Shown here: positions 7,753 through 55,140 of the stretch, one piece after another
Layout of the letters: each line of letters opens with the position of its first letter
Position numbering within the stretch: the stretch's first letter is position 1
DNA from: Selenomonadaceae bacterium
GTDB lineage: Bacteria; Bacillota; Negativicutes; Selenomonadales; Selenomonadaceae
NCBI GenBank assembly: GCA_017535925.1
Contig: JAFXTD010000028.1
Span: forward strand, 17,229 to 81,228
DNA length: 64,000 bases
Reading direction: 5' to 3'
Notes under the pieces: generated by a model
Seen by the model: only the letters and a program-made list of their open reading frames with translations
Told to the model about the DNA's origin: nothing
Databases searched by the model: none
Translations under genes and position numbers: made by a program

Positions 7753-8293
7753 ACTTTTCAAGCCAATCGCTCATGCCCAAATGCACGACGTATTCTTTGG
7801 CGCACTCGTAATAATGCATCGCCGAAGTCCTCAACGCAACAATTTCGTCCTCGCGAAGAGCGCGCATAATCTTTGCGGGATTTCCGAAGACCAATGAATT
7901 ATTCGGAATTTTTTTGTACTGCGTGATAACCGTGCCCGCGCCGATAATGCAGTTGTTTCCGATTTCCGAATAGCCGAGAATTATCGAGCCCATGCCAATC
8001 AGACAATCGTCGCCGATTTTGCGGCAGTGGATAATCGAGTTGTGCCCTATCGTCACGTAGTTGCCGATTTCCGTCGGCGTGTCGCCCATGACGTGCACCG
8101 TGCAGTTGTCTTGAATGTTTGTGTAGTTGCCGATTCGCACGGGTTGAAAATCTCCGCGAACCGTCACGCCGAACCAAATACTTGAGCCCGCACCGATTGA
8201 CACTTCGCCGACAATCGACGAGCCCGGCGCAACGAAAACATCTTTGGCTATCTTGGGTTGTTTGCCTTTGTAAGGAAGAATAATCGGTTCCAT
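7751..8293 (-). CDS. gamma-class carbonic anhydrase-like / hexapeptide-repeat protein (YrdA/PaaY type)
   Basis: Left-handed beta-helix hexapeptide repeats; His-containing motifs (TVHVMG, IGHNSIIH). Confidence 0.85.
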   Translation of the reverse strand: MEPIILPYKGKQPKIAKDVFVAPGSSIVGEVSIGAGSSIWFGVTVRGDFQPVRIGNYTNIQDNCTVHVMGDTPTEIGNYVTIGHNSIIHCRKIGDDCLIGMGSIILGYSEIGNNCIIGAGTVITQYKKIPNNSLVFGNPAKIMRALREDEIVALRTSAMHYYECAKEYVVHLGMSDWLEK

Positions 8294-8331: not shown

Positions 8332-8492
8332 GGAGCATGTTGGTAAGTTTTCTTCTGCTTTTCTTTTGAAAGTTTTCTTCTACTTTTTCTTTGCCGGCAC
8401 CAAAGAAAAAGTAGCAAAAAGAAAGGTGCTTTAACCGGCTGTAAAAACATCCTGTTTTTAACGCCGGCGGCCGTCATCCGTGACGGCCGGGC
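8332..8492 (-). repeat. multi-hairpin MITE-like element, partial copy (right TIR present, left end missing)
   Basis: Reverse complement aligns to 54860-55032. All three hairpins are present (GGCCGTCACGGATGACGGCC, AAAAACAGGATGTTTTT, CTACTTTTTCTTTGG..CAAAGAAAAAGTAG), plus a TIR-like GGAGCATGTTGGTAAGTT at 8332-8349. Confidence 0.7.
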
Positions 8493-12530: not shown

Positions 12531-12624
12531 GGAGTGGTACTCAAGCTTGGTGACGAGGCCTCACTGCTAATGAGGTAGGCTGCATAAAAGCGGCGCGGAG
12601 GTTCAAATCCTCTCCACTCCGCCA
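12531..12624 (+). tRNA. tRNA-Ser (anticodon GCT)
   Basis: Acceptor GGAGTGG/CCACTCC; anticodon stem CCTCA/TGAGG with loop CTGCTAA; long variable arm; T arm GGAGGTTCAAATCCTCT; encoded CCA. Confidence 0.93.
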
Positions 12625-20408: not shown

Positions 20409-20551
20409 GGAGCCGTCACGGACGACGGCTCCTCACGCCGCACTGAAACAGGATGTTTCTGCGGCGCGCCCCTGCGAGGTGCCCTTTCTTTTTGCTACTT
20501 TTTCTTTGGGCACGCAAAGAAAAAGTAGAAGACACTTGCAAAAGAAAAACC
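20409..20551 (+). repeat. multi-hairpin MITE-like element, internal copy without TIRs
   Basis: GGAGCCGTCACGGACGACGGCTCC, GAAACAGGATGTTTC, CTACTTTTTCTTTGGGCACGCAAAGAAAAAGTAG. Shares the CGAGGTGCCCTTTC variant with the 33186-33412 copy. Confidence 0.7.
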
Positions 20552-28025: not shown

Positions 28026-31000
28026 TTATTCGAACTGCTGGGTCGCATGGTTGACTTTGGCAGTGGTGCCGTCGTCGAGAACGATGTTGACTTCAGCAGT
28101 GCTGTTGACTGTGAGCGAGCTGCCGTCGGTGAGTTTGATCTCAACGCCGGTTGCGGTGATGTTCGTGCCGTCGAAGTCAATCTGGTCAAGCGTCACGCCG
28201 AGCTGGATAACGTCGCCGTCATTCGCGCTCATGATTGTGTCGTTGCCGTTGTATCCTTCGAAGTAGAACTCGTTGTGACCGGTGCCGCCGTACATTACGT
28301 CGTTGACGATGCCGGAGCCGCCCCACATGCTTGCGTTGCCTGCGCCGCCGTAGATGGTGTTGGCAATTTCGTTACCTGCAGCCAAGACTTCCGCATTGGA
28401 GCCGCGTGCGTCGACAACAGTGAACTTGCTGTTGCTGAAGTCTACGCCGTTGCCGTAATCCGGAGCGTCGAGCCAAATCTCGGTCGAAGCAATGTCGCCG
28501 ACTTTGACGGTCGCGCCGTTAGCGTCGTCGGTTGCGCAGTAGAAGTCGACATAGGAGTTGTTGACGGTGACTTCCGTCGCCGCAATCTGGGCAACAGTCT
28601 CGAACTCGGTGCCGCGGTCAACCAAGAATTCATTGCCTGCCGCATTTTCGATAGTGACTTTTTCGGTTGCGCCGCCTTCGCCGCGGTTACCCTGGATAGC
28701 AAGCGTTACGCTGCCGTCAGAGTTGGCTTTGATGTCGGTTACGCCGTTTTCGCCCATATCGATCGTGAGTGCGTCGAAGGTTGCGGTATTGCCGCCGCCG
28801 TTCTCGATGAACTCGAAGCCGCTGATGGTGTTCTGCGCGCCGTTGTTGATACCAAGTACGAAGAATTCGGTGGAGCCCATCTTGTCTTCGCTGGAGGAGC
28901 CGACCAAGTTGTTCTTGCCGCCGCCGCCGTAGAGTGAGCCTTCGCCCGTGCCGGCAACGAGAGTTTCATCTGCAGAGCCGCCCTTGAACAAGGTGTTGCC
29001 GCTGCCGCCGATGAGGCTGTTCATGCCGTCGAACGTTGCGTTGTCGTCGCCGACTTTGCTTTGAGCCCAATCGCCGTCCATGTCAACGGTAACTTCGCCG
29101 GTGTATGCGCTGAAGTCAACCGCGCCGTTCGGTGCTTTGTAGAAGTTGGGAGCATCTTCGCCGACGGTGATTGTGCCGCCTTCGACAGCGATAGCCGCTT
29201 TGATCGTCTCGTTGTTGTTGACAAAGAGTTGTTCGACGAAGCCTGCTTCGGTTGTCACAGCTGCGGTTGCGCTGAACTTGTCGTTCTTGTTGCTGACAAC
29301 GAGGTTTGTGCCGTCGAAGGAAACGTCGGTGTCTGCTGCCGCGAGATCAACATTGAGGATATCGCCGTTGAAGCCGCTGACCAAACCGGTGATGGTGTCT
29401 TTGCCTTCGCCGAGGATAATCGTTGCTGCGCCGCGGTCTTCAGTTTCGGCATCGAGGATAATCTGGTTCGAACCCGCGCCTGCGTCGATAACATCGTTTT
29501 CGCCGCCGAAGAGGGTGTCGTTGCCGGTGCCGCTCTTGAGGCTGGAGCCGCCGAGTTTGTCGCTCTCTCTGTTGCCGATAAGGATGAGGTCTTCCGCAAT
29601 GTCGCTTGCGTCGAGAACGCCGCCTTCTTTATCGGTGAAGCCGACCAACTGACCGTAGTCGTCGCCGTAGGTGTCTTTGCCGTCTTTGTAGCCGAACAAG
29701 CGAATCATGTTCTGGTGGTTGCTGTTCAAGTTGTTGACGGTGATTCTGGTCTTGCGGTCTGTACCTTCTTTGCGGGATTCGTTCGCGTCGAATTCGTCGC
29801 GGTCGATAGCAGTAATTCCGCCGTCTTCGAAGAGCAACAACTCGTCTTGAATTGCATCGACGATGTTGTCAGCATACGGAATTTCAGGATCGTGGAGGAC
29901 AACGCCGGAAATGCCGGTTTCGTCGTAGTTGTTGAGGACGATGTTGGCATTGGCTGCCGCGTAGGTGTGAATCTTGTCAACGCTGTTGGTATTGGCAGTG
30001 CCGCCCATGTCAATGACGGTCTTCATGTTGGCTTGATGGACAACTTTGTCATTTTCCATGCTGCCGCCAACCCAGATCGTGTCATGACCGGAGCCGACAG
30101 TGATGTTGACTTGACCGTATTCGTCGTCGCCCTGCATGATAACCGCGTCGCCGTGGTTGCCGAGGACAATGTTCTTTTCGCCTTCAGCGGTATCAGTGAC
30201 CCAAGCAACGCTCTTGCCGGCGGTGGTGCTGAGTTTGCCGGTCGAGGTGCCGCCGGCATCAAAGATGACAAGACCCGAAGCTGCGTCGGTGGAACGATCC
30301 AAATTGTCGTTGTTGGATTCACGGAAGATTTGCTCTGTCGGGAACGGATCGAGACCAAGCCAGTTGTCTGCGTACATGATTTTGCCGGCTGTGACTTGCG
30401 AATAGAACAACGGATAATCATGATCGGTCACGAAAGAGCTGAGGGTATCTTCTGCCTTGGTGTTGTAGCCGATAATTGCTTCGTTGGTGAGGTTGGCAGT
30501 CGCAATGTCTTCTGCGGAATAGGTTGTGCCGTTGACAGTGATGGGACCTTCGGAGACTTGGAGAAGTGCATCTTCGTCAAGTCCGGTGACTACGCCGCCT
30601 GCAGTGATTGTGACGCCGTCTTTATCATTAACAACTCTGTAAATTTTGCCGTTGACGGTGTAGATGTCAGGGATTCCGTCGGTGCTGTCGCTTGCAAAGA
30701 CAAACGTCGTGCCTTCGTCGGTGCTGCTGACAACGTCGCCGTCGACAAGACCGCTGACTTCGGCAAGACCGGTGCTGGTGTCGCCCGTGACGGTAATGTC
30801 ATTGGCGGCAGTGTAAGTGAGCGTATCGCCGTTAATATCGATTTCGTAAGTGCCGTTGCGGAGAACGATTGAATCTTCAACACCGTCAAGACCCGTAATT
30901 ACACCGTTGAGGTCAAAGGTAAAGGTGTCATCTGTATCCGCTGTAAGAGTATTTCTTAAAGGAACGTTTGCGGGAACGATTGCGCCGTCGCTCATATTGC

Positions 31001-32792
31001 TGATTGTGAATTGAGGATCGGTCGGGTCGGTAACGTCGGAAAGAGTGACCGTGAAGCCTTCGGTATCCGCAATAGCAGGAACAGCAATCAAGTTGGCAGC
31101 GGTTTCAGTGAGGTAGTAGAGGTCGAGGTCTTCGGCACCGTCGGGCAACGTGACAGAGTCATCTTTCGATTCGAATACGAAGCCTTTAATGATTCCGTTT
31201 GCGGCGGTTATGAAGTGACCGTTGCCGGTGTAGCCGTAGGTGAATCCGTTGACGTTGTCGGTGACGTAGCCGGTCTTGTCGCCGGTGGTGAGCTGATCGA
31301 TTCCGGAATATGCGGCATAGACAGTTTCGCCTGCATCAACTACGAGTTGTTGATCGCCTGCCGCGCCGCCGATAAGCGTGAAGTCGCCGTCGGAAACAGT
31401 GATGTATTCCAAGGTGCCCTTCTTGCTGATAACAGGCAAGCCTTCTTCTTCGCTGTCAGCATCCGGGCCGGTGACGACCAATTTGTCGCTCGTGCTGGTG
31501 AGGTTGTAGAGACCGTCGACGCTTTCGATAACGCCGTCTTCGTCGAAGGTGATATTGATTTCTTTACCGCCTGCGAGAGCAGATTTGATTGTGAAGTCTA
31601 ACGTCGTATCGCCGATTGTAACTTCTGAGGTATTTGCAATGGTGAGCGTGTAGTTGTTTGCATTCTTGGTAACGGTGTAGCCGCTGCCGTCAACTGTAAC
31701 GAGCTTGGTGAGATCTTCGTCATAGACGTTGATATCTTGGTTATTGGCAACGGTGATCGAGTCGCCGGTAACATCCAAGACAAAGCCTTCGACCGAGCCG
31801 TTGCTATTGAGCGTGAAGTAAGCTTCGCTGTTTGCGCCGAGAACGTACTCATACGTCTTCTTGGCAATCATGATGGAGCCGCCTGCTACGTCGTTTGAAT
31901 CGGGATCGGTGGGCGGAACGAGTTTTTCGGCGTTGGCTGCCGAAGTAACGTTGATAACGTCGGTGCCGTCTTGAGCGAGGTCGCTGAGGTCAAGTTCAAT
32001 GCCGTCTGTGCCGTAAGTGAATACGACTGTGCCTGCGGCAACGTTCTTAATCTTGACTTCGTTATCGTCGACTGTAAAGTTGTAGTCGTTCTCTACGGCA
32101 ACGGAGCCGCCTTCGGTTCCTGCAGTGACTATGCTGTCAAAGCTTGTTTCGTCGCCTGTCCAAACGAGATCGTCTTCACTTTCGGGCGGATCAAAGCCGG
32201 TAACGGTAACGGTGATGTCGCCTTTGGTGTAGGCGTCGGCATTGTTGGCATCGTATTCACCCATAGTGAATTGACCTTCGCCTGCGTCAATCTTGCCGCC
32301 TGTGAGGTTGCCGTTGTTCAACGTGAACGAGAGACCTGCGCTGGCATTGAGTTCAAAGCCTTTGCCGTTTGCTTTTTCGAGAACGAGACCGGCGACTCTG
32401 GCAAGGGTCGAAATGCCGTCGAGGTTGTTCAAAGCAAGTTCAGTAACTTCATAGCCGCTGGCATTTGTCGTTGTTGTTGCGCCTGTTTGAGAGAAGAACA
32501 CGCCTGCAGTGGAAGTGCTGTTGGTGAAAGGATTGGTACCATTTTTCCAAGCATAGTATTTGCCGTCGGAAGCCAAATATCTATCGGCGTTTTGTTCGGT
32601 GATGGCATCCGCCGTGTTGGCAACCTTATTGAGTTCTGCATCGCCGTATTCGACGTCTTCATCCCAACTGTCTGCGCCTTTGCTGGTGTCGCCGTCGACG
32701 TCCAAGTTAAAAGTGCTTACACTATCCGGCTCGCCTGCCGGTACAAATTCCTCAAGCTCGAAATCGTCGAGGACGTTGAAAAAATCATTCAT
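28026..32792 (-). CDS. giant acidic RTX-like repeat exoprotein (1588 aa)
   Basis: No signal peptide. D/T/G/N/V-rich with repeated ~100-aa modules. The C-terminal third has Gly/Asp nonapeptide-like repeats (GTGNDTLFGGENDVIDAGAGSNQI; YGGAGNASMWGGSGIVNDVMYGGTGHNEFYF). Confidence 0.85.
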   Translation of the reverse strand: MNDFFNVLDDFELEEFVPAGEPDSVSTFNLDVDGDTSKGADSWDEDVEYGDAELNKVANTADAITEQNADRYLASDGKYYAWKNGTNPFTNSTSTAGVFFSQTGATTTTNASGYEVTELALNNLDGISTLARVAGLVLEKANGKGFELNASAGLSFTLNNGNLTGGKIDAGEGQFTMGEYDANNADAYTKGDITVTVTGFDPPESEDDLVWTGDETSFDSIVTAGTEGGSVAVENDYNFTVDDNEVKIKNVAAGTVVFTYGTDGIELDLSDLAQDGTDVINVTSAANAEKLVPPTDPDSNDVAGGSIMIAKKTYEYVLGANSEAYFTLNSNGSVEGFVLDVTGDSITVANNQDINVYDEDLTKLVTVDGSGYTVTKNANNYTLTIANTSEVTIGDTTLDFTIKSALAGGKEINITFDEDGVIESVDGLYNLTSTSDKLVVTGPDADSEEEGLPVISKKGTLEYITVSDGDFTLIGGAAGDQQLVVDAGETVYAAYSGIDQLTTGDKTGYVTDNVNGFTYGYTGNGHFITAANGIIKGFVFESKDDSVTLPDGAEDLDLYYLTETAANLIAVPAIADTEGFTVTLSDVTDPTDPQFTISNMSDGAIVPANVPLRNTLTADTDDTFTFDLNGVITGLDGVEDSIVLRNGTYEIDINGDTLTYTAANDITVTGDTSTGLAEVSGLVDGDVVSSTDEGTTFVFASDSTDGIPDIYTVNGKIYRVVNDKDGVTITAGGVVTGLDEDALLQVSEGPITVNGTTYSAEDIATANLTNEAIIGYNTKAEDTLSSFVTDHDYPLFYSQVTAGKIMYADNWLGLDPFPTEQIFRESNNDNLDRSTDAASGLVIFDAGGTSTGKLSTTAGKSVAWVTDTAEGEKNIVLGNHGDAVIMQGDDEYGQVNITVGSGHDTIWVGGSMENDKVVHQANMKTVIDMGGTANTNSVDKIHTYAAANANIVLNNYDETGISGVVLHDPEIPYADNIVDAIQDELLLFEDGGITAIDRDEFDANESRKEGTDRKTRITVNNLNSNHQNMIRLFGYKDGKDTYGDDYGQLVGFTDKEGGVLDASDIAEDLILIGNRESDKLGGSSLKSGTGNDTLFGGENDVIDAGAGSNQIILDAETEDRGAATIILGEGKDTITGLVSGFNGDILNVDLAAADTDVSFDGTNLVVSNKNDKFSATAAVTTEAGFVEQLFVNNNETIKAAIAVEGGTITVGEDAPNFYKAPNGAVDFSAYTGEVTVDMDGDWAQSKVGDDNATFDGMNSLIGGSGNTLFKGGSADETLVAGTGEGSLYGGGGKNNLVGSSSEDKMGSTEFFVLGINNGAQNTISGFEFIENGGGNTATFDALTIDMGENGVTDIKANSDGSVTLAIQGNRGEGGATEKVTIENAAGNEFLVDRGTEFETVAQIAATEVTVNNSYVDFYCATDDANGATVKVGDIASTEIWLDAPDYGNGVDFSNSKFTVVDARGSNAEVLAAGNEIANTIYGGAGNASMWGGSGIVNDVMYGGTGHNEFYFEGYNGNDTIMSANDGDVIQLGVTLDQIDFDGTNITATGVEIKLTDGSSLTVNSTAEVNIVLDDGTTAKVNHATQQFE

Positions 32793-33185: not shown

Positions 33186-33412
33186 CTGTCGTGATTCGAA
33201 TTTCCTCACTTCGATTTAACGGTTAATGAGTTTTAGTTTATTGAAAAACTTTTTCTTTGCATGCCCAAAGAAAAAGTTACAAAAAGAAAGGGCACCTCGC
33301 GGGGGCGTTCGTCGTTCATGATTCGGAGGTTGAGGTTACCCGCAACCGCTCGTCCCGCAAAAAAAACATCCATGTTTTTGTTGCGGGGGAGCCGTCATCC
33401 ATGACGGCTCCA
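33186..33412 (-). repeat. multi-hairpin MITE-like element, copy with internal insertion and degenerate ends
   Basis: The reverse complement has GGAGCCGTCATGGATGACGGCTCC, AAAAACATGGATGTTTTTT, an extra ~45-nt segment, a hairpin-3 variant, and the TCAATAAACTAAAA / CGTTAAATCGAAGTGAGG right-arm similarity. Confidence 0.6.
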
Positions 33413-33940: not shown

Positions 33941-33984
33941 ACTCCTTTCTTGTGAAGTGATTAATTTTAATTGTCGCTTTGGCT

Positions 33985-35199
33985 TTATGTCAAGTCACTT
34001 GCCGCAAGTCGAGCCGCACCGAATTTTCCACGCTTAATCAAAAGCCACAGCGCGATTGAAAGAGCCGTTGAAGTCGTGATGATTATTCCGAGCCCGAAGA
34101 TAAAATTTCCCCAAGGCAACGTTCCCAGCATCATGCCGAGAGAGCCGAAGAGTGTCGGGACAAAATTTATTATCGATGAGGCGGTGCCGACGTTGTCTTT
34201 GGCTTCGTTGAGGAGGATTTCCATTGCGAACGGACGAATCACCGCGCCTATCGCCGTGAAGGGCAGGAAGGTCAGCAAAAACATTATCGCCGCCGTTTGT
34301 CCGACAGTCAAAACCAAAATGCCGCTCGCCATTGCCGCGAAGAAATTCAATTGCAAGAGGCGCACGTTCGACAAAATATTTTTCAGCTTGAGATATAAAA
34401 TCGGTCCCGCGATTGACGCCGCCGAATTCACTGCGAAAAAGTAGCTGTACTCCTGCGCGGTCAAGTCGAAAAATTCGACGTAGATAAAACTCGACGCGCT
34501 AAGGTAAGCCATGTAAGGCGCGGACAAAATCGAAAACATTATCAGCGACGCCATGAAATATTTTTTTCGCCCGACCTCGACGAGCAATGTCAGCGAACGA
34601 AAAATTCCTCCGTGATAGCGTTTGTGTTCGGGCAACGTCTCACAAAACAAAAACGCCACGAATAAATTTATCGCACCCAAAATTGTCAGCAAGCAGAAAG
34701 CCCCTCGCCAATCGGTGAAAGTCAAAAGCACGCCGCCGATTAAAGGTGCAACCATTGGAGCTATCACGCCGAGTGCCTGCGTTATCGCCAAAATTTTTCT
34801 CATGACTTGCCCGCGAAAACAATCTTTTATCAGAGCCGTTTCGACCGTGATTATCGCGCCCGAACCGACCGCTTGAAAAAATCTTCCCGCCAACAAAAAA
34901 TAAATATCTGCCGAGACCGCGCAGGCAAAGGAAGCCGCCGTATAAATTGCCGCGCCGAAAATCAAAATCGGTCGCCGCCCGAATTTGTCAGCCAAAGGGC
35001 CGAACAGAATCATACTCACCGCGAACACGAAAAAAAATATCGTCAGCGTCAAGCCGACAAGAAATTCGCTCGCCGAAAAATAATTTCCCATTTGAGGCAA
35101 CGCGGGCAAATATAAATCTGTTGAAAGAGGTATGAACGCCCCGATAAATGTCAAGTACGCTATCATTGCCGAGATTGAAAGATACTTCTGTTGTCTCAT
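33985..35199 (-). CDS. MFS transporter, Bcr/CflA-type drug efflux family
   Basis: 12-TM profile; MFS motif A GPLADKFGRRPIL. Confidence 0.85.
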   Translation of the reverse strand: MRQQKYLSISAMIAYLTFIGAFIPLSTDLYLPALPQMGNYFSASEFLVGLTLTIFFFVFAVSMILFGPLADKFGRRPILIFGAAIYTAASFACAVSADIYFLLAGRFFQAVGSGAIITVETALIKDCFRGQVMRKILAITQALGVIAPMVAPLIGGVLLTFTDWRGAFCLLTILGAINLFVAFLFCETLPEHKRYHGGIFRSLTLLVEVGRKKYFMASLIMFSILSAPYMAYLSASSFIYVEFFDLTAQEYSYFFAVNSAASIAGPILYLKLKNILSNVRLLQLNFFAAMASGILVLTVGQTAAIMFLLTFLPFTAIGAVIRPFAMEILLNEAKDNVGTASSIINFVPTLFGSLGMMLGTLPWGNFIFGLGIIITTSTALSIALWLLIKRGKFGAARLAASDLT

Positions 35200-35299
35200 C
35201 TAATCGCCTCGTTAAAATTTTTTTTATCATAGCAGAAAAATTTTTCGTTGCATAGCGGCTTGACTTCCTTTTTCGACGGTGTTTATATTTCGCGGGGTG

Positions 35300-38173
35300 A
35301 TGTTCATGCAGTTTCAATTTAAAAAGCAACTCTTCCAAGAGGAGGCGGCTGCTTCCGTCTGTGATTTGTTCATCGGGCAAGCATGTCAATCTCAATCGGG
35401 CGCGTTGAGTCTTATGCGGCTCGACGAATTTAATATCGGTTCCAATGCCGAAATTTCTCTTTCCGACGAAAAAATTTTGGAAAATCTGCGCGGCATTCAA
35501 GAGCGAAATAAATTGCCGCTGTCGAAAAATCTTGAGGGGAAAAATTTTTCTGTGGAAATGGAAACGGGCGTCGGCAAAACTTACACTTATATCAAGACAA
35601 TGTACGAGCTCAATCGCCGCTACGGTTGGAGCAAATTTATCGTCGTCGTGCCGAGTATCGCCGTTCGCGAGGGCGTCAAAAAAACTTTTGATATGACAGC
35701 CGAACATTTCAATTCCGTTTACGGAGAAAAAATCCGTCACTTCATTTACAATTCCAAAAATCTTTCCGTCATTAAAAGTTTCGTCAGCGATTCAAAAATT
35801 TGGGCGATGATTATCAACGTTCAAGCCTTCAGAGCGCGTTCGGATGATGCACGCCGCATGACGCAGGAGCTTGACGAATTCCAAAGCCAAATTCCAATCA
35901 AGGTTATCGCAAAAATAAATCCGATTATCATAATCGACGAGCCGCAATCGGTCGAAAGTGAATTGGCTTGCAAAAAAATTAAAGACTTCAATCCGCTGAT
36001 GATTTTGCGATATTCGGCGACGCTTAAAAATCCTTACAACCTCGTCATGCGCCTCGACGCACTCGACGCTTATCAACGCCGCCTCGTAAAAAAAATTTCC
36101 GTCAAAGGAATTGAAACTCGCAACGAAAATTTTTCCGGCTACATTTTTTTTGAAAGGCTCAATCTTTCAAGAGGCAACCCGACCGCCACGATGACTTTCA
36201 AGCGAAAAACGCCCGGCGGTGTCAAAAAAATTTCCCGCAAAGTTTCCGTCGGCGACGATTTGTTTATTTTATCGAACGGGCTTGAAGGCTATCGAAATTT
36301 CGTCGTGACAGAGATTGACGGCGTGAAAAGGTCTGTCGAATTTCTCAACGGCTTGGAAATTTTTATCGGTCAAGCGGTCGGTGACGTGAACGAAGAAGAA
36401 TTGAGACGCATTCAAATTCGCGAAACCATTCAATCTCATCTTGAGCACGAGGATCGGCTTTTCGGGCGCGGCATAAAAGTTTTGTCATTGTTTTTCATCG
36501 ACGAGGTCGCCAAGTATCGTCGCTACGAAGGAAACTTGCCGCTTGCCGGGATTTACGCCAAAATTTTTGAGGAAGAATACGCCGCCGCCGTTCAAAATTT
36601 CCATGCAGACAACGACTATAAAATTTATCTTGAATCAATCGCCGCGCAGGACACTCACGCCGGATATTTTTCCGTCGACAAAAAAAATCACGCCGTCGAT
36701 TCCAAAGAGGACGATGTTGACGCTTACGATTTGATTATGCGAGACAAAGAGCGGCTTTTGGATTTGAAGACGCCCGTCCGATTTATTTTTTCGCATTCGG
36801 CTTTGCGCGAGGGCTGGGACAATCCGAACGTCTTTCAAATTTGCACACTCAAGCACAGCTCAAGCGATATTCGTCGGAGGCAAGAGGTCGGGCGCGGCAT
36901 GAGGCTTTGTGTAAATCTTCACGGCGAACGCATGGACGAAGACAAACTCGGCGCGGATTTTCATGACGTGAATGTTTTGACCGTCATTGCCAACGAGAGC
37001 TATCAAACTTTCGCGGCGGGCTTGGAAAAAGAAATATCGGAGGCTGCCCGGCGCACGCCGGCTATCGACGAAAAATTTTTTGTCGGAAAAAAATTTTCGG
37101 GCATCAACGCTGACGAAAAATTTTCCCGAAAAATTTATAACGCCTTGATTCGCTGTAACTACCTTGACGACGAAGGAAACTTAACGGAAAAATTTTTCAA
37201 CGACAATTCTCAAGGCGCGATTGATTTGGGCGAGGAACTCAAGAATCACTGCGCGGCGATTGTAAAATTTCTTGACATTGATTTTAATATCGAAAACGCA
37301 CGCGACATTGACGTTGAAGCAAAGGCGGATGTCAAAAAACTTCACGACGAAAATTTTTTGAAACTTTGGGAGCAAGTCAATCGAAAAAGTTTCTACAGCG
37401 TCGAATTCGATTCGGAAGAGCTGATAAATCTTGCGGCGGACGCGCTCAACAAAAAGTTGCCCTCGTCGGAAAATTATTTCCTCGTTGAAAGCGGCACTCT
37501 CAATGACAAAGGCACCTTCGACAAGGAGCACAGTCGCAGGGAAAATTTTCAAGCGGCTGAAACTTTTTCGGAAACGGATTTAATCGCCGCTCTTGCCGAC
37601 GAAACTTCTTTGACGCGCAGAGACGTTGCCGAAATTTTGAAACGCCTCGAAATGCTCAAGCTTAACCATGAAAAATTTATTTTGAACTCGACAAAAATTA
37701 TTCGCGAAACCAAAGCCGACCGCCTCGCCGCGAACGTCACTTACACCGCCCTCGACGAACGCTTCAACATTAAAATTTTTAACGCGCCGCTGAAAGGTCG
37801 TTTCAACGTCAACGCCGCAGAGACCTCCAAAAATATTTACGATTACCTGATTTTCGATTCGACGATTGAAAAAAATTTCGCCGCCGAACTGGAGGCAGCC
37901 GACAGCGTTTCCGTCTATGTGAAGTTGCCGAAAAGTTTTTATATCCCGACGCCGTTCGGCAAGTACACTCCCGATTGGGCGATAGTACTTCGCGAAGGCT
38001 CTGTCAAAAATATTTATTTCGTCGTCGAAACGAAAGGCTCCACCGACGAAGGACAACTGCGCGGCGTCGAGGAAGGCAAAATTTTTTGCGCAGGGAAATT
38101 TTTTGACACAATCGGCGAAGGCAAGGTAAAATACCGCTTGGCAAAAACTTTTCAAGATATTTTGGAGGAGTGA
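35300..38173 (+). CDS. res: type III restriction enzyme, Res subunit
   Basis: MQFQFKKQLFQ N-terminus; Walker A METGVGKTYTY; IIIDEPQS box; helicase C motifs; C-terminal PD-(D/E)xK-like TPDW...VVETKG. The start could be 35300 or 35306. Confidence 0.92.
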   Translation: MFMQFQFKKQLFQEEAAASVCDLFIGQACQSQSGALSLMRLDEFNIGSNAEISLSDEKILENLRGIQERNKLPLSKNLEGKNFSVEMETGVGKTYTYIKTMYELNRRYGWSKFIVVVPSIAVREGVKKTFDMTAEHFNSVYGEKIRHFIYNSKNLSVIKSFVSDSKIWAMIINVQAFRARSDDARRMTQELDEFQSQIPIKVIAKINPIIIIDEPQSVESELACKKIKDFNPLMILRYSATLKNPYNLVMRLDALDAYQRRLVKKISVKGIETRNENFSGYIFFERLNLSRGNPTATMTFKRKTPGGVKKISRKVSVGDDLFILSNGLEGYRNFVVTEIDGVKRSVEFLNGLEIFIGQAVGDVNEEELRRIQIRETIQSHLEHEDRLFGRGIKVLSLFFIDEVAKYRRYEGNLPLAGIYAKIFEEEYAAAVQNFHADNDYKIYLESIAAQDTHAGYFSVDKKNHAVDSKEDDVDAYDLIMRDKERLLDLKTPVRFIFSHSALREGWDNPNVFQICTLKHSSSDIRRRQEVGRGMRLCVNLHGERMDEDKLGADFHDVNVLTVIANESYQTFAAGLEKEISEAARRTPAIDEKFFVGKKFSGINADEKFSRKIYNALIRCNYLDDEGNLTEKFFNDNSQGAIDLGEELKNHCAAIVKFLDIDFNIENARDIDVEAKADVKKLHDENFLKLWEQVNRKSFYSVEFDSEELINLAADALNKKLPSSENYFLVESGTLNDKGTFDKEHSRRENFQAAETFSETDLIAALADETSLTRRDVAEILKRLEMLKLNHEKFILNSTKIIRETKADRLAANVTYTALDERFNIKIFNAPLKGRFNVNAAETSKNIYDYLIFDSTIEKNFAAELEAADSVSVYVKLPKSFYIPTPFGKYTPDWAIVLREGSVKNIYFVVETKGSTDEGQLRGVEEGKIFCAGKFFDTIGEGKVKYRLAKTFQDILEE

Positions 38174-38179
38174 ACCCAA

Positions 38180-38947
38180 ATGAATTACAAGCTCTGGGAT
38201 TTTTTCAAAGAGTTGCAGACGAATTACGACTTGGTAGACTTGACTCACCCGCTCGACAACGACAGCCCTTATTGGTCGGGAATTCCCGAAGGCTCCGTTG
38301 AACTTTGCAAGACTTGTTTCGATTGGGGCAACCCGATGCTCGAATGCCTGATTCAAACTTTTAAATTCCCGGGACAATTCGGCACGCATATCGACTTCCC
38401 CGCTCACTTCATCAAGAATGCTCCGCGCAGTGAGGCTTACGGCGTGAGCAACATGATTTATCCTCTTTGCATCATTGACATTTCGGCGAAGGTTGCAGAG
38501 GATATTCACTACGCTGTGACGGCTGACGACATCAAGGCTTACGAAAAAATTTACGGCGCAATTCCCGACGGCGCGTTCGTTGCACTTTACAGCAATTGGG
38601 CTCGGCATTGGCCTGACATGAATAAAATTTCGGGTATCGCCGAAGACGGCAGCGAAAATTTCCCCGGCTGGTCTCTCGACGCGCTCAAATATATTTATGA
38701 AATTCGGAACGCCGCCGCAAACGGTCACGAGACACTTGATACCGATGCTTCCGCAGAGGCGTCTAAGGCAGGCGATTTGGCTTGCGAACGTTATATCCTC
38801 TCGAAAGGCAAACTCCAAGTCGAAGTCATGACGAATCTTGACAAGGTTGCTCCCGCCGGCGCAATTGTCTTTGTCGCTTGGCCGAACATCACAGGCGCAA
38901 CAGGTTTGCCCGCCAGAGTTTTGGCTATCACTCCAAAAAAATCATGA
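38180..38947 (+). CDS. putative-cyclase / kynurenine-formamidase-fold protein (PF04199-like) embedded in the R-M operon
   Basis: GQFGTHIDFPAHF metal-binding motif of the cyclase family. ATG lies 6 nt after the res stop (RBS GGAGGAG), and the stop overlaps the mod start (ATGA). Confidence 0.75.
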   Translation: MNYKLWDFFKELQTNYDLVDLTHPLDNDSPYWSGIPEGSVELCKTCFDWGNPMLECLIQTFKFPGQFGTHIDFPAHFIKNAPRSEAYGVSNMIYPLCIIDISAKVAEDIHYAVTADDIKAYEKIYGAIPDGAFVALYSNWARHWPDMNKISGIAEDGSENFPGWSLDALKYIYEIRNAAANGHETLDTDASAEASKAGDLACERYILSKGKLQVEVMTNLDKVAPAGAIVFVAWPNITGATGLPARVLAITPKKS

Positions 38948-40809
38948 ATAACATTGACAAGCTCGAAAAAATTTTTCCCGAATGCATTACCGAAGCCGAA
39001 GACTCCGAAGGCAATTTGATTCGCGCCGTCGATTTTGTTCGACTTAAACAAATTCTTTCGGATGAACTCCTCGAAGGGCGTGAGGCTTACGAATTTAATT
39101 TCGTCGGGAAGAAACGCGCCGCTCTTGAGGCTCACAAAAAAATTCGGAAGACGCTCCGCCCGCTTATCAATCAAAGCCGCAACTTCGACACGACTCAAAA
39201 TCTTTACATCGAAGGCGACAACCTCCAAGCTTTGAAAATTTTGGCGGAAAGTTATCTCGGCAAAGTCAAAATGATTTACATAGACCCGCCGTATAACGTA
39301 GGGGCGGACGCCATTTATCGCGACGACTTCACACAGGACTCCGATACTTTCGATGAGGAGGCTGCAGTCCGCGACGACGAGGGCAATCGCCTTTTCACCA
39401 ACAAGGAAAGCTGCGGGCGTTTCCATTCCGATTGGTGCGCCATGATTTATTCGAGGCTTTTAATCGCCAAACATTTTCTCTCTGACGACGGCGTCATTTT
39501 TATTTCTATCGACGACCACGAACAGGCGAACCTCAAAAAAATTTGTGACGAGGTCTTCGGCGAAAAAAATTTTGTCGCTTGTATTGCCGTGATAAATAAT
39601 TTCAAAGGACGGAGCGACGATAAATTTATCGCGACGGCTCATGAAAACTTGTTGATTTACCGTAAAGAAAACTTTAAGACAAACGGCGTGCCGATTCCCG
39701 ACGAATATCTTAAAGAATACACTTTGGAAGATGAACACGGCAAATATCGTTTGCAAGGCTTGAGGAAACGCGGCGCAAATTCAAAACGCGAAGACCGCCC
39801 AAACATGTTTTATCCTTTTTTTTATGATGAAGAGAGCGGCAAACTTTCCATTGACGAATTGCCCGCCTCGATAAAAATTTTGCCGTACCTTTCGGATGGC
39901 ACAGACGGTTGCTGGCGTTGGGGCAAAGACACTGCTCGCGAAAAAATTTCGGAGCTGACAGTTCAAAAAGTTAAAAGGCGCGGAGAATATGATGTATTTC
40001 AAAAAGATTATCTTCCAAGTGACGGTGTACGACGCGTTAAACCGAAATCTTTTTGGAGCGGCTCGGAATTTTCTGCAGAAGCAGGAACGTTGACGCTTAA
40101 GGCAATCATGGGCAAAGGAATTTTTTCGACGCCAAAATCATTGGGGCTTGTCAAATACATGTTGCAACAGGCGACGGACAAAGATTCAATCGTTATGGAT
40201 TTTTTCAGCGGCTCTGCGACGACGGCTCATGCAGTCATGGAACTCAACGCGGCGGACGGCGGGCAACGAAAATTTATCATGATACAAATTGCAGAGGCGA
40301 CGCCCAAAAATTCGGAGGCACACCGCGCCGGCTACGAGACCATTTGCGAAATCGGCAAGGAGCGAATACGTCGAGCGGGCGACAAATTAAAAGCCGCGCA
40401 TCCGAATTTGGACACGGGCTTCAGAGTTTTCAAAGTTGCCGATTCAAATTTCAAGCCGTTGCCGAAAGAGTGGACACCCCGGACAATTATGGACTTCGCG
40501 GAAAATATCAAAGCCGACCGCAACGCTTACGATTTATTTTTCGAGGCGTTGCTTGATACGGGCATGACACTTGATAAAAAATTCGCGGAAGAAGAAATCG
40601 ACGGCGTGAAAGTTTTGAGCTTCGACGGCGGAAAAATTTTGGCAAGCTTCGAAAAAAATATTTCGGCTTCGACGTTCAGGAAGTTGGCAAATCGCGGAGC
40701 GGAAAAAATTTTTTTCAGAGATGCCTCGTTTGCAAGTTCGTCTGACAAGATAAACGCTTTGGATTATTTTAAATACTTCGCGCCGGATACAAAAGTTAAA
40801 GTTTTATGA
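38944..40809 (+). CDS. mod: type III DNA methyltransferase, Mod subunit (beta-class N6/N4)
   Basis: Start at MNNIDKLEKIF. LYIEGDNLQALKIL; catalytic IYIDPPYN; later AdoMet motif FFSGSATTAHA. Confidence 0.92.
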   Translation: MNNIDKLEKIFPECITEAEDSEGNLIRAVDFVRLKQILSDELLEGREAYEFNFVGKKRAALEAHKKIRKTLRPLINQSRNFDTTQNLYIEGDNLQALKILAESYLGKVKMIYIDPPYNVGADAIYRDDFTQDSDTFDEEAAVRDDEGNRLFTNKESCGRFHSDWCAMIYSRLLIAKHFLSDDGVIFISIDDHEQANLKKICDEVFGEKNFVACIAVINNFKGRSDDKFIATAHENLLIYRKENFKTNGVPIPDEYLKEYTLEDEHGKYRLQGLRKRGANSKREDRPNMFYPFFYDEESGKLSIDELPASIKILPYLSDGTDGCWRWGKDTAREKISELTVQKVKRRGEYDVFQKDYLPSDGVRRVKPKSFWSGSEFSAEAGTLTLKAIMGKGIFSTPKSLGLVKYMLQQATDKDSIVMDFFSGSATTAHAVMELNAADGGQRKFIMIQIAEATPKNSEAHRAGYETICEIGKERIRRAGDKLKAAHPNLDTGFRVFKVADSNFKPLPKEWTPRTIMDFAENIKADRNAYDLFFEALLDTGMTLDKKFAEEEIDGVKVLSFDGGKILASFEKNISASTFRKLANRGAEKIFFRDASFASSSDKINALDYFKYFAPDTKVKVL

Positions 40810-41914
40810 CGATGCCTCGCTTGCGGAAGAAAAAGGCAAGCGGCAACCAAAGCAAAGCCCACACCGCGCAGAAAAGAGTTGCGCCGAATTCCGTCGAGAT
40901 TAAACCTTGCGTCGTGTGCTGATACAGTTGCAAATAAACGCCGTTATAAATTGTTCCATCGGGAATGATATAAAGCGTCGTCAAGAGCGCGTTGTTCGCC
41001 ACGAAGAAGAACAGCGGATTGATACCGAGTGCGCCGAACGGTAGAGAAAATTTTTTCAGTGGCGTTTCTTCATCGAAGAATTTCTTAAACATCGCAAGCA
41101 AGAGGAAATCGATACCGGCATTTATCAGCGCGTAAGGTGTCGTCCAAAGTTTTTTCGAGATAATGTCGAATTCACTCCAGACGCCTCCCGCGATTAAAAG
41201 AATCCCTGCCGCCTTGCAGAAGAGAAAAATTTTATCGCGTTCGGTCGTCGTGTTGTCGATTAAAATTTTTCCTGCCAAGAAGCCGAACAAAACGGAAGCC
41301 GTGCCCGCCAAACATCCGTAAAGACCTTCGGGGTCGTGCGTCGGTCGGTAAATGTGATTGACGCCGGGGAAAATGTAATCGACGGCTTGACTTATGTTAT
41401 GCGCCTCGTCGAAAGGATTATCGGGTGCGTAGAGGTGATAGCCCGCCGAAGAGACAATCAGCAAGACGACCGCCGCGATTAAAATTCCGCGAAAATCTTT
41501 TACGGCTCGTGCGATAAAAATTCCAAGCGCGTAAGTCACGGCGAGCCTCTGAATTATCCCGAAGAGCCGCCCGTGAATAATTGCCTCGTCAAAAAAATTT
41601 ACAGCCGTGAAGTCGTCGGCGAATATCCAAAGGAATAAGAAAGGTTGCATCTCCAAGAGGACACCGATCATAAACATGAACGCCGTCCGCTTGAGGATTT
41701 TTTTTGTCGGGAAGTCGCGCTTGGACATGGAAACAGCCGCGCCCGCTCCCATTGCGAACGCGAACATCGGCAACGCCACGTCGGGTATCGTCAAGCCTGC
41801 CCATTGCGGGTGTTCGAGTATCGAATAAATTTTGTCGGGCGGTCCGTCGAGGAAAAGCATTATCGATATTGCCACGCCGCGCAGCACGTCCAGCGAATAA
41901 ATTCTTTTCGTCAT
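40796..41914 (-). CDS. integral membrane acyltransferase-like protein (DUF1624/DUF5009, HGSNAT-like)
   Basis: Start at MTKRIYSLDVLRGVAI (behind GGAGG). About 10 TM helices. The 3' end overlaps the mod 3' end by 14 nt, convergently. Confidence 0.75.
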   Translation of the reverse strand: MTKRIYSLDVLRGVAISIMLFLDGPPDKIYSILEHPQWAGLTIPDVALPMFAFAMGAGAAVSMSKRDFPTKKILKRTAFMFMIGVLLEMQPFLFLWIFADDFTAVNFFDEAIIHGRLFGIIQRLAVTYALGIFIARAVKDFRGILIAAVVLLIVSSAGYHLYAPDNPFDEAHNISQAVDYIFPGVNHIYRPTHDPEGLYGCLAGTASVLFGFLAGKILIDNTTTERDKIFLFCKAAGILLIAGGVWSEFDIISKKLWTTPYALINAGIDFLLLAMFKKFFDEETPLKKFSLPFGALGINPLFFFVANNALLTTLYIIPDGTIYNGVYLQLYQHTTQGLISTEFGATLFCAVWALLWLPLAFFFRKRGIVIKL

Positions 41915-42094
41915 GAAGTTTCCTCCGAAAATTTTTTGCTCGGCAAATTTTATCACAGTGTGAAAAAAAAATCTGCCCTCCGATTTTCCGTTGTAAAATC
42001 ATTCGCCGCGAAATTGACAAAAAATAAAAAATAGCTATAATGAACTTCAACGAAAAAAATTTCAACGCTGTTGTTATTCAAGGAGGCGATTCGC

Positions 42095-45129: not shown

Positions 45130-45288
45130 TTAGGTCGTGTTGATGAATCTAAAAGCAACGGTGAGTGAAAGCCCGGCCGTCACGGACGACGGCCGCCGGC
45201 GTTAAAAACATGGATGTTTTTATAGCCGGACTAACGCCCTTTTCTTTTGCTACTTTTCTTTTGGGCGCAACAAAAGAAAAGTAGAAAG
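45130..45288 (+). repeat. multi-hairpin MITE-like element, copy with degenerate left TIR and truncated right end
   Basis: TTAGGTCGTGTTGATGAATCT (compare TTAGGGGCTGTTGGTAAATTC), GGCCGTCACGGACGACGGCC, AAAAACATGGATGTTTTT, CTACTTTTCTTTTGGGCGCAACAAAAGAAAAGTAG. Confidence 0.7.
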
Positions 45289-47374: not shown

Positions 47375-47400
47375 GTCGTTACCTCCTGTTGTCAGGTTAT

Positions 47401-47623
47401 TAGGGGCTGTTGGTAAATTCGAAAAGCAGCGGGTAGCGAGTGCCCGGCCGCACACGGACGTGCGGCCGCCGCGACTTAAAACCTGGAAGGTTTTATAGCG
47501 GACAAACGCCCTTTTCTTTTGCTACTTTTCTTTTGGGCGTAGCAAAAGAAAAGTAGATTCAATAAACAAAATTCATTGCAACGTTCAATCGAAGCCGACT
47601 ATTTAATTTACCAACAACCCCTA
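47401..47623 (+). mobile_element. complete MITE-like element (19-bp TIRs, flanking GGTTAT duplication)
   Basis: Left TAGGGGCTGTTGGTAAATT versus the reverse complement of the right end, TAGGGGTTGTTGGTAAATT. GGTTAT at 47395-47400 and 47624-47629. Internal hairpins GGCCGCACACGGACGTGCGGCC, AAAACCTGGAAGGTTTT, CTACTTTTCTTTTGGGCGTAGCAAAAGAAAAGTAG. Confidence 0.75.
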
Positions 47624-47655
47624 GGTTATTAGAATTTTATTTCTTTACTACTAAC

Positions 47656-54789: not shown

Positions 54790-54823
54790 AATTAGGAATT
54801 AGGAATGAGGAATTAGGGGCTGT
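54790..54823. repeat. heptamer array interrupted by the MITE (continues at 55033-55045)
   Basis: AATTAGG AATTAGG AATGAGG AAT | element | GGAATGG GGAATG. Confidence 0.8.
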
Positions 54824-55032
54824 TGGTAAATTAAAAAGTAGCGGTTGGCGAGTGCCCGGCCGTCATGGATGACGGCCGCCGGCGATATGAACAGGATGTT
54901 CATCCGCCGGGTTAAGCACCTTTCTTTTTGCTACTTTTTCTTTGGTGCCGGCAAAGAAAAAGTAGATTCAATAAACAAAAGTTATTGAGACGCTTAATCG
55001 GTGCCGACGTTTTAATTTACCAACACGCTCTA
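54824..55032 (+). mobile_element. complete MITE-like element (19-bp TIRs, flanking GGAAT duplication)
   Basis: Left TAGGGGCTGTTGGTAAATT; the right end AATTTACCAACACGCTCTA matches in 16 of 19 positions as an inverted repeat. GGAAT at 54819-54823 and 55033-55037. Hairpins GGCCGTCATGGATGACGGCC, ATGAACAGGATGTTCAT, CTACTTTTTCTTTGGTGCCGGCAAAGAAAAAGTAG, TCAATAAACAAAAGTTATTGA. Confidence 0.75.
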
Positions 55033-55140
55033 GGAATGGGGAATGAAAAAATTTTTTCGTATCGTGTAACGAAATCGGATTTGAAACGTATAAGCTGCAG
55101 AAAACAAAATCACAATCAAAAGCAAAGGAGAATGATTAAC

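What the first reader, a model, noticed from the sequence alone, without database searches (positions are those of the whole stretch)
35260..40809. Type III R-M operon in res-first order with a cyclase/formamidase-fold gene translationally coupled between res and mod
Res and Mod are unmistakable. Res has Walker A METGVGKTYTY, IIIDEPQS, and the nuclease motif TPDW...VVETKG. Mod has IYIDPPYN followed later by FFSGSATTAHA. Two things are unusual. First, res precedes mod, whereas the canonical order is mod-res. Second, a 255-aa PF04199-like protein sits between them. That family is called 'putative cyclase' or kynurenine formamidase. It is a metal-dependent hydrolase fold, not a nucleotide cyclase. 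The metal motif is GQFGTHIDFPAHF, with Gln where the first His is expected. Its ATG lies 6 nt after the res stop and its stop overlaps the mod start (ATGA), so the three genes look like one translational unit. I know of no described type III system with such a third component. It could be an accessory effector or modifier acting on bases or nucleotides, or a regulator of the restriction/modification balance. The locus sits in an accessory-looking stretch that also holds a MITE copy, an MFS efflux gene and a membrane acyltransferase.
Basis: partly seen in the sequence, partly recalled or inferred. Interest (0 to 1): 0.72.

Follow-up and report, generated by a model that had tools for sequence, protein, structure and literature searches.

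The report
Host hydrolase gene trapped inside restriction operon
The three genes are real, but the middle one is an ordinary, widely conserved bacterial hydrolase gene caught between the two halves of a standard type III restriction-modification system by local rearrangement; nothing here indicates it is a new third component.

Summary
An intact type III res (35306-38173), a 255-aa PF04199 hydrolase gene (38180-38947) and an intact mod (38944-40809) lie head to tail with the stated junctions.

- Orthologues of the middle gene (72-92% identical) occur alone in several unrelated contexts in Selenomonadaceae and other Firmicutes.
- In relatives the same gene directly abuts the same NagX-like membrane gene with no R-M present (L017-22), or lies downstream of a canonical cbiE-mod-res (L104-106).
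- The closest res/mod relatives at the same MFS-flanked locus have res overlapping mod with no hydrolase (L103, L156).
- About 140 more distant res loci never contain it.
- R-M genes were lost while the hydrolase stayed (L001, L016, L017), and the reverse also happened. This is a double dissociation.

The architecture is still not a one-off. Res-cyc-mod-mod recurs in L192/193, where a 10-nt res-start remnant follows the last mod. This fits a series mod-res-cyc, then res-cyc-mod, then res-mod, produced by duplication and deletion.

A third gene inside such operons is common (52/150), but these are DUF1016, RhuM, HEPN, Fic or Schlafen families.

This is an ordinary R-M system with an unusual gene order and a passenger gene.

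The parts
35306..38173 (+). res, the type III restriction subunit (SF2 helicase/ATPase plus C-terminal PD-(D/E)XK endonuclease). Alternative upstream starts lie at 35279 (GTG) and 35300 (ATG).
   Evidence: PF04851 5e-14 and PF19778 2.7e-32. PADLOC REase_III PDLC03647 at 1e-274, covering residues 10-963 of the protein and positions 1-984 of 989 in the profile. NCBIfam PRK15483 at 3e-114, below its cut-off. Homologue starts MKFQFKH.
38103..38132 (+). Promoter-like site (TTGACA-18-TAAAAT, 11/12) inside the last 70 nt of res, about 50 nt upstream of the hydrolase ATG. It is inferred to be an internal promoter for cyc-mod.
   Evidence: The element is conserved in the res 3' ends of L192, L104, L103 and L156, and is retained in the res remnants of L001 and L016. 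Function is not shown.
38180..38947 (+). PF04199 'putative cyclase' family metal-dependent hydrolase (isatin-hydrolase / kynurenine-formamidase / C-PTE relatives). It is interpreted as a passenger host gene.
   Evidence: PF04199 2.2e-31. PDB 8F9X 1.7e-30 and isatin hydrolases 5NMP/5NNB/4J0N. No NCBIfam or PADLOC hit. Orthologues 72-92% identical occur in non-R-M contexts.
38944..40809 (+). mod, the type III N6-adenine DNA methyltransferase, with a variable central target-recognition region (about 39580-40150).
   Evidence: PF01555 6.3e-31. PADLOC MTase_III PDLC03634 at 9.5e-187, residues 2-620. Only the 5' and 3' thirds align to relatives.
40796..41956 (-). NagX/HGSNAT-like membrane acyltransferase gene, convergent with mod and overlapping its last 14 nt. 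In L017-22 its orthologue directly abuts the hydrolase gene.
   Evidence: NCBIfam NagX 7e-20, below cut-off. 80% nt identity to L017 6233-7414. 13/14-nt microhomology between the native mod 3' end and this gene's 3' end.
33985..35199 (-). Bcr/CflA-type MFS efflux gene, divergent from res. This left flank is shared with L001, L103 and L156.
   Evidence: TIGR00710 1.7e-57. Collinear alignment of window 33984-38168 with L103 at 76%. 92% identity with L001.
35260..35289 (+). Promoter-like site (TTGACT-18-TATATT, 10/12) in the MFS/res intergenic region.
   Evidence: This is a consensus match only.

Best explanation
The locus is a standard two-subunit type III restriction-modification system. Mod methylates an asymmetric site, and Res is an ATP-dependent helicase-like nuclease acting in a Mod/Res complex. 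This mechanism is taken from family knowledge, not tested here. The system belongs to a clade that has long resided in rumen/gut Selenomonadaceae.

The middle gene is a conserved host metal-dependent hydrolase of the isatin-hydrolase/kynurenine-formamidase family, and it works independently of restriction. It was the gene immediately downstream of a canonical cbiE-mod-res insertion (state seen in L104-106). A later duplication and deletion of mod placed a mod copy downstream of the hydrolase and removed the upstream one. This gave res-cyc-mod (window, L192/193). In a further sub-lineage the hydrolase was deleted, giving res-mod (L103, L156, L194).

The junctions lie at ribosome-binding-site/ATGA microhomologies, which explains why they look translationally coupled. 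The hydrolase, and probably mod, may be transcribed from a promoter-like element in the res 3' end (inferred).

Shown: gene identities, synteny comparisons, double dissociation. Inferred: order and mechanism of the rearrangements, promoter use.
For: 1. Independent life of the hydrolase. Orthologues 72-92% identical lie beside OPT/radical-SAM genes (L002-9), in S. ruminantium (L010) and as HD-cyc-aminotransferase (L013). Two further R-M-free contexts, LytR|cyc (L016) and cbiE-cyc|NagX-like (L017-22), appear to be former R-M neighbours (see point 5).

2. In L017-22 the hydrolase stop is followed with 0 nt by the orthologue of window 40796-41956. In the window, mod (38935-40795) sits exactly between them.

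3. L104 equals L017 plus a 4.68-kb mod-res block between cbiE and cyc. Res+cyc are collinear between L104 and the window.

4. The same MFS-flanked locus in L103 and L156 (Res 73-74% identical) has res overlapping mod with no hydrolase. L194 likewise has res-mod.

5. R-M decay with the hydrolase intact. L001 lacks res except its last 78 nt and has a shortened mod. L016 keeps a ~60-nt res 3' remnant (score 37 against shuffles 15.2±2.4). L017 lacks mod-res altogether.

6. Res tree. Mod-first loci are basal, and the window is sister (100% bootstrap) to the res-mod group.

7. Duplication footprints. Tandem mod-mod occurs in L103 and L192. 'ATGAAAATTC', the first 10 nt of res, follows modB in L192.

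8. None of ~140 distant Res loci carries a PF04199 gene.

9. No R-M-specific signature in the protein.
Against: Res->cyc adjacency with tight or overlapping junctions persists in three architecture classes with different outer flanks (window; L192/193; L104-106). A functional link would also predict this.

Mod sits immediately after cyc in two different right-flank backgrounds (NagX-like in the window, LytR in L192). So either the permutation happened twice or the flanks were exchanged afterwards.

The branching of L192 versus L104 is unresolved (41% vs 38% bootstrap), so the order of events is not fixed.

All comparison loci are metagenome contigs or MAGs. Whole genomes could not be checked for second hydrolase copies. 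Nothing was tested experimentally.
Confidence: 0.8

Rival explanations
1. The hydrolase has been co-opted as a genuine accessory of this R-M clade. For example, it could tune the Res:Mod ratio as a translationally coupled spacer, or act on a small molecule or nucleotide relevant to restriction.
For: Res->cyc adjacency is retained across Res divergence down to 64% identity in three architectures with different flanks. The junctions are 6 nt, -4 nt and -11 nt. Embedded third genes are common in this R-M family.
Against: There is a double dissociation. R-M exists without cyc (L103, L156, L194, L107-111) and cyc exists without R-M (L001, L016, L017, L013, L002, L010). There is no sequence signature of specialisation. 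The fold family acts on small amides and esters (PMC12135135). There is no PADLOC hit and no literature link.
Confidence: 0.08
2. A one-off, recent insertion of a hydrolase gene into a res-mod operon in the window's lineage only.
For: The closest relatives at the same locus (L103, L156) have res directly overlapping mod. ATGAAT microhomology at the cyc and mod starts could mediate either insertion or deletion.
Against: Res-cyc-mod-mod is found in a different flank context at Res 69% identity (L192/193). Res+cyc are collinear with L104. The cyc/NagX-like adjacency is shared with L017. L001 shares the arrangement.
Confidence: 0.04
3. The arrangement is maintained because it benefits the R-M element. 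Placing a useful host gene, and its promoter, inside the operon makes clean loss of the whole R-M block costly. This would be a form of stabilisation by entanglement.
For: Both independent res deletions (L001, L016) stop short of the promoter-bearing res 3' end. The hydrolase is under strong conservation (139/256 invariant columns).
Against: Partial losses occurred anyway (L001, L016), as did a complete mod-res loss (L017). There is no evidence that the hydrolase is essential, and promoter activity is untested.
Confidence: 0.08

Closest known systems
Canonical type III R-M systems (EcoP1I/EcoP15I type; NCBIfam PRK15483, PADLOC REase_III/MTase_III)
   Same: Res has SF2 ATPase motifs plus a C-terminal PD-(D/E)XK domain. 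Mod is a beta-class N6-adenine methyltransferase with DPPY and FxGxG motifs and a variable central TRD. The two genes are adjacent on the same strand.
   Different: The gene order is res->mod instead of mod->res (144/150 relatives are mod->res). Res is about 955 aa, against about 1015 aa in the <=51% identical group. An unrelated host gene lies between the two genes.
R-M operons with embedded accessory genes (DUF1016/YhcG nuclease, RhuM, Fic/DOC, HEPN, Schlafen/AlbA_2). These are noted between the core genes of type I systems in PMC9881135 and are seen here in 52/150 related type III loci.
   Same: A third same-strand ORF lies between the two core genes.
   Different: Those families are nuclease-, toxin- or NTPase-like and typical of defence loci. 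The ORF here is a conserved small-molecule hydrolase with orthologues in non-defence contexts, and it is absent from all distant operons.
Isatin hydrolase, cyclase-phosphotriesterase C-PTE (PDB 8F9X) and kynurenine formamidase (PF04199)
   Same: Full-length sequence similarity (8F9X 1.7e-30; 5NMP 1.6e-24). The motif residues H69, D71 and H75 and a Glu in 'QVEV' are retained. These correspond to H96, D98, H102 and E236 of C-PTE (PMC12135135).
   Different: Gln65 replaces the first metal-binding His (H92 of C-PTE) in 118/120 orthologues. The substrate is unknown. There is no NCBIfam equivalog.
R-M-linked genome rearrangements: insertion with duplication, substitution and inversion next to R-M units, as described for Helicobacter by Kobayashi and colleagues. 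This is recalled from memory and was not checked here.
   Same: R-M genes lie at breakpoints of local rearrangements. There are tandem duplications of mod and clean indels of the R-M block between host genes.
   Different: Here the outcome is a circular-permutation-like reordering that leaves a host gene inside the operon.

Membership tests
Type III restriction-modification system | Res subunit with SF2 helicase/ATPase motifs (Walker A, DEAH-like) | tested here: met
   PF04851 5.2e-14. Motifs METGVGKTYTY and IIIDEPQS are present. PADLOC REase_III 1e-274 over the full length.
Type III restriction-modification system | Res C-terminal PD-(D/E)XK endonuclease domain | tested here: met
   PF19778 2.7e-32, residues 851-954. 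Motif TPDW...VVETKG.
Type III restriction-modification system | Mod subunit: N6-adenine methyltransferase with DPPY (motif IV) before FxGxG (motif I) and a central variable TRD | tested here: met
   PF01555 6.3e-31. PADLOC MTase_III 9.5e-187. Motifs IYIDPPYN and FFSGSATTAHA are present. The central third does not align to relatives.
Type III restriction-modification system | res and mod form a cognate adjacent pair | tested here: met
   Homologues of both genes are adjacent in 150 related loci.
Type III restriction-modification system | Typical operon order mod->res (usual but not defining) | tested here: not met
   The window is res->(cyc)->mod. 144/150 relatives are mod->res. Res-first order occurs only in L077 and the window's own subclade.
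Type III restriction-modification system | ATP-dependent cleavage requiring Mod-Res complex; hemimethylation of an asymmetric site | not testable with these tools
   Requires biochemistry or methylome sequencing.
PF04199 putative cyclase / isatin hydrolase / kynurenine formamidase | Profile match above the curated threshold over the whole domain | tested here: met
   109.4 bits against a cut-off of 23.1, profile positions 1-142 of 142. PDB relatives at 1e-30 to 1e-18.
PF04199 putative cyclase / isatin hydrolase / kynurenine formamidase | Metal-binding motif HxGTHxDxPxH plus a distal Glu/His | tested here: inconclusive
   The sequence is QFGTHIDFPAH, with Gln in place of the first His. The other ligands are conserved. 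The variant is fixed in 118/120 orthologues, so it is a subfamily trait and not decay (PMC12135135).
Obligate third component of an R-M system | Co-occurrence with res/mod across homologous operons, and absence outside them | tested here: not met
   0 of ~140 distant loci carry it. In the close clade it is present in 3 of 8 architecture classes. Orthologues are common without R-M, and R-M has been lost around it in L001, L016 and L017.
Known R-M-embedded accessory families (DUF1016/YhcG, RhuM, Fic, HEPN, Schlafen) or any PADLOC defence family | Profile match of the middle ORF | tested here: not met
   The only Pfam hit is PF04199, and there are 0 PADLOC families.

The most novel reading that the evidence does not exclude
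In a Selenomonadaceae lineage a host hydrolase gene has become entangled with a type III R-M operon. It sits between res and mod, is driven by a promoter inside the res 3' end, and has been retained there across deep divergence. This could be because it modulates the system (Res:Mod dosage or a small-molecule signal), or because its presence stabilises the R-M element against loss.
Probability: 0.1. Interest if true: 0.6.

Novelty: new member of a known kind. Interest (0 to 1): 0.25.

Why it matters
Tight spacing, overlapping stop/start codons and a shared strand are not enough to call a gene a component of a defence system. Here a comparative check gives a clean double dissociation.

The set of related loci also preserves what look like successive stages of an operon permutation: mod-res-cyc, then res-cyc-mod(-mod), then res-mod. 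That makes it a small but concrete example of how R-M gene order can flip and how host genes get trapped and released.

If the minority reading were right, so that the trapped gene influences or stabilises the system, it would be an unusual case of R-M/host-gene entanglement.

Tried and rejected
- NCBIfam and PADLOC scans of the middle ORF returned nothing.
- A literature search for PF04199 together with restriction-modification found 0 papers.
- The genome-collection scan with Res found no relative above 51% identity.
- A Biopython bootstrap timed out and was replaced by a numpy NJ bootstrap. That bootstrap leaves L192 versus L104 unresolved.
- I looked for res remnants upstream of the free hydrolase genes. 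The result is significant for L016 only, not for L013, L017, L002 or L010.
- I looked for residues diagnostic of R-M-linked copies and found one conservative R/K position.
- I looked for a second PF04199, res or mod copy in the window and found none.
- I considered Campbell-type integration and inversion models for the res-cyc-mod order. I rejected them because they predict a duplicated cyc or flipped strands, and neither is seen.
- I considered that L017 arose from a window-like state by ATGA-ATGA deletion. I rejected this because that deletion would remove the NagX-like gene's last codons, and L017 retains them.

Full report
**1. The observation**

The window carries three head-to-tail ORFs on the + strand.
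- res runs from 35279/35306 to 38173.
- A 255-aa ORF runs from 38180 to 38947.
- mod runs from 38944 to 40809.

The res stop is followed by 6 nt and then the ATG of the middle gene, with GGAGGAG just upstream. The stop of the middle gene overlaps the mod ATG in ATGA.

Profile searches leave no doubt about identities.
- Res matches PF04851 and PF19778, and PADLOC REase_III at 1e-274 over its full length.
- Mod matches PF01555, and PADLOC MTase_III at 1e-187 over its full length.
- The middle ORF matches PF04199 at 2.2e-31, far above threshold.
- The middle ORF has no NCBIfam or PADLOC match.

By comparison with homologues (MKFQFKH), the res start is most likely the ATG at 35306.

**2. What the middle gene is**

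Its closest solved relatives are the Ruegeria cyclase-phosphotriesterase 8F9X (1.7e-30) and isatin hydrolases 5NMP, 5NNB and 4J0N. In 8F9X the alpha-metal is bound by H92, H96, D98 and E236, with H102 nearby (PMC12135135). The window protein has Q65, H69, D71, H75 and a Glu in 'QVEV' at the aligned positions.

The Gln is not decay. The motif PGQFGTH(I/V)DFPxH is present in 118 of the 120 best homologues.

A database search found 1945 homologues. The best 120 are 72-92% identical and come from Selenomonadaceae, Schwartzia, Phascolarctobacterium and Solobacterium. That level of conservation is typical of a vertically inherited enzyme, not of a defence accessory.

**3. Contexts of the hydrolase gene**

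Look-ups of six representative homologues gave six different neighbourhoods.

| Locus | Neighbourhood |
|---|---|
| L002-9 (oral Selenomonas) | OPT transporter \| cyc - radical SAM |
| L010-12 (S. ruminantium) | after an rRNA methyltransferase gene |
| L013-15 | HD - cyc - aminotransferase/OTCase |
| L016 | LytR \| cyc - acyltransferase |
| L017-22 | cbiE - cyc \| NagX-like membrane gene |
| L001 (closest homologue, 92%) | MFS \| cyc - short mod |

DNA comparison shows that L001 is the window's locus with positions 35257-38095 deleted. That removes all of res except its last 78 nt. L001's mod is shortened to 408 aa: it lacks the first 46 residues, a 30-residue internal segment and the last ~120 residues.

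In L017-22 the hydrolase stop is followed with no spacer by the orthologue (80% nt) of window 40796-41956. In the window, mod occupies exactly the space between them.

**4. Contexts of res/mod**

One-per-species genomes hold no Res above 51% identity. In those 80 loci and 79 of the 80 metagenome loci (all but L156, which is a close relative) no PF04199 gene is present, and mod precedes res in all but one.

The protein database does contain a closer clade (55-76% identity, about 950-970 aa, mostly rumen Selenomonadaceae). Eight architecture classes were recovered.

| Locus | Architecture |
|---|---|
| window | MFS \| res-cyc-mod \| NagX-like |
| L156 | MFS \| res-mod |
| L103 | MFS \| res-mod-mod-TnpB |
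| L194 | res-mod |
| L192/193 | GT2-res-cyc-modA-modB-LytR |
| L104-106 | cbiE-mod-res-cyc-LytR |
| L107-109 | cbiE-mod-res-MFS-dnaE |
| L110/111 | mod-res |

In L192/193 the 548-aa ORF with no Pfam hit on record is a Mod copy broken by scaffold Ns.

So the hydrolase directly follows res in three classes. The window's res-cyc-mod layout recurs in a second flank context. It is not a one-off.

**5. Why this is shared ancestry of a neighbour and not a functional triad**

- L104 equals L017 plus a 4.68-kb mod-res block between cbiE and cyc. cbiE-mod-res is collinear in L104 and L107.
- L016, nominally 'free', keeps about 60 nt of the res 3' end upstream of cyc (local alignment score 37 against 15.2±2.4 for shuffles). 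L001 likewise keeps 78 nt.
- R-M was therefore lost at least three times while the hydrolase stayed intact (L001, L016, L017).
- Conversely, the Res tree places the window as sister, with 100% bootstrap, to the res-mod group L103/L156/L194. That group shares the MFS flank (in L103 and L156) and lacks the hydrolase. R-M therefore persists without it.
- R-M-linked and free hydrolases interleave in the gene tree. They differ by a single conservative diagnostic residue.

This double dissociation is what a bystander predicts.

**6. How the order probably arose (inferred)**

Mod-first loci are basal in the Res tree. L104 (mod-res-cyc) and L192 (res-cyc-mod-mod) come next, although their order is unresolved (41% vs 38% bootstrap). 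The window (res-cyc-mod) follows, and then res-mod.

Tandem mod copies exist in L103 and L192. In L192 the last mod is followed by ATGAAAATTC, which matches the first 10 nt of res in L104. That is the footprint expected if a mod-res(-cyc) unit was duplicated and the second res deleted.

All junctions sit in short homologies.
- The res 3' end TTTTGGAGG resembles the hydrolase's own ribosome-binding region (AAATTTTGGGAGG in L017).
- The hydrolase stop AAATGA resembles the mod start ATGA.
- The native mod 3' end GTTAAAGTTTTATGA matches the NagX-like gene's 3' end TTAAAGTTTGATGA at 13 of 14 positions.

This accounts for the apparently designed translational coupling. Whether the permutation happened once or twice remains open, because the right flanks differ (NagX-like in the window, LytR in L192).

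**7. Expression (inferred)**

A near-consensus promoter-like site (TTGACA-18-TAAAAT) lies at 38103-38132 in the res 3' end. It is conserved in the clade, and both independent res deletions spare it. It may drive cyc-mod independently of res. No terminator-like signal above background separates the three genes.

**8. Calibration**

A third gene inside a type III operon is not rare in this family. Of 150 loci, 52 have more than 600 nt between mod and res, in nearly every case with a same-strand ORF. These were classified by similarity to exemplars as follows.

| Embedded family | Loci |
|---|---|
| DUF1016/YhcG nuclease | 15 |
| RhuM | 5 |
| HEPN | 4 |
| Schlafen/AlbA_2 | 3 |
| Fic | 2 |
| unclassified or other | remainder |

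Such embedded genes are also noted for type I systems in PMC9881135. PF04199 appears only in the window's own relatives.

**9. Verdict**

This is an intact, otherwise ordinary type III R-M system with an atypical res-first order and a trapped host hydrolase gene. The proposal of a novel third component is not supported (confidence in the passenger model about 0.8). A functional or stabilising entanglement cannot be excluded without experiments (about 0.1).

Caveats:
- All comparison loci are metagenome contigs or MAGs, although most patterns recur in two to six independent samples.
- Whole-genome copy numbers could not be checked.
- The direction of some events is inferred by parsimony.

Noticed in passing
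window 8379-8492, 20467-20548, 33232-33307, 45130-45285, 47399-47625, 54812-55034; also L016 8769-8887, L013 11156-11341, L107 2463-2536: A REP/MITE-like intergenic repeat of about 110-230 nt, built of three short hairpins (CTACTTTTTCTTTG...CAAAGAAAAAGTAG; AAAAACATCC.TGTTTTT; GGCGGCCGTCATCCGTGACGGCCGGGC). There are six copies in the window and copies in related MAG contigs, one directly downstream of the hydrolase gene in L016. It has no Rfam match at gathering threshold.
   Followed up: partly
window 38103-38132; L001 about 1877-1944; L016 about 7929-7989: The last ~70 nt of res carry a near-consensus sigma-70-like promoter. Two independent res deletions in relatives both retain this segment upstream of the hydrolase gene. 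This suggests the host gene now depends on a promoter inside the restriction gene.
   Followed up: partly
L103 4200-7801; L192 4963-8514: Tandem duplicated mod genes are present, with alignable 5' and 3' thirds and differing or non-alignable central TRD regions. This suggests specificity diversification by mod duplication in this clade. In L192 both copies look damaged: one has a scaffold gap and the other a C-terminal frameshift.
   Followed up: partly
L023-L191 (150 loci with both res and mod): About one third of related type III operons carry an extra gene between mod and res: DUF1016/YhcG PD-(D/E)XK nuclease, RhuM, HEPN, Schlafen/AlbA_2-HATPase or Fic. Another 18 are unclassified.
   Followed up: partly
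window 40796-40809; L017 6233-6246: There is a 13/14-nt identity between the native 3' end of mod (GTTAAAGTTTTATGA) and the 3' end of the convergent NagX-like gene (TTAAAGTTTGATGA). The two genes overlap by 14 nt with both reading frames intact.
   Followed up: yes
window 28026-32792 (-): A 1588-aa acidic, repeat-rich ORF (Gly/Asp/Thr-rich, with RTX-like GGxGxD-type stretches near the C-terminus) lies in a stretch with G+C 0.52-0.57, against about 0.48 for the window. No profile search was run.
   Followed up: no
window 2907-3324 (-), 12531-12621 (+): RNase P RNA class A (284 bits) and one tRNA. These are ordinary chromosomal markers, consistent with a chromosomal rather than mobile-element origin of the window.
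   Followed up: no
L103 7958-9211: An IS605-family TnpB/OrfB gene lies immediately downstream of the res-mod-mod block in the closest res-first relative.
   Followed up: no
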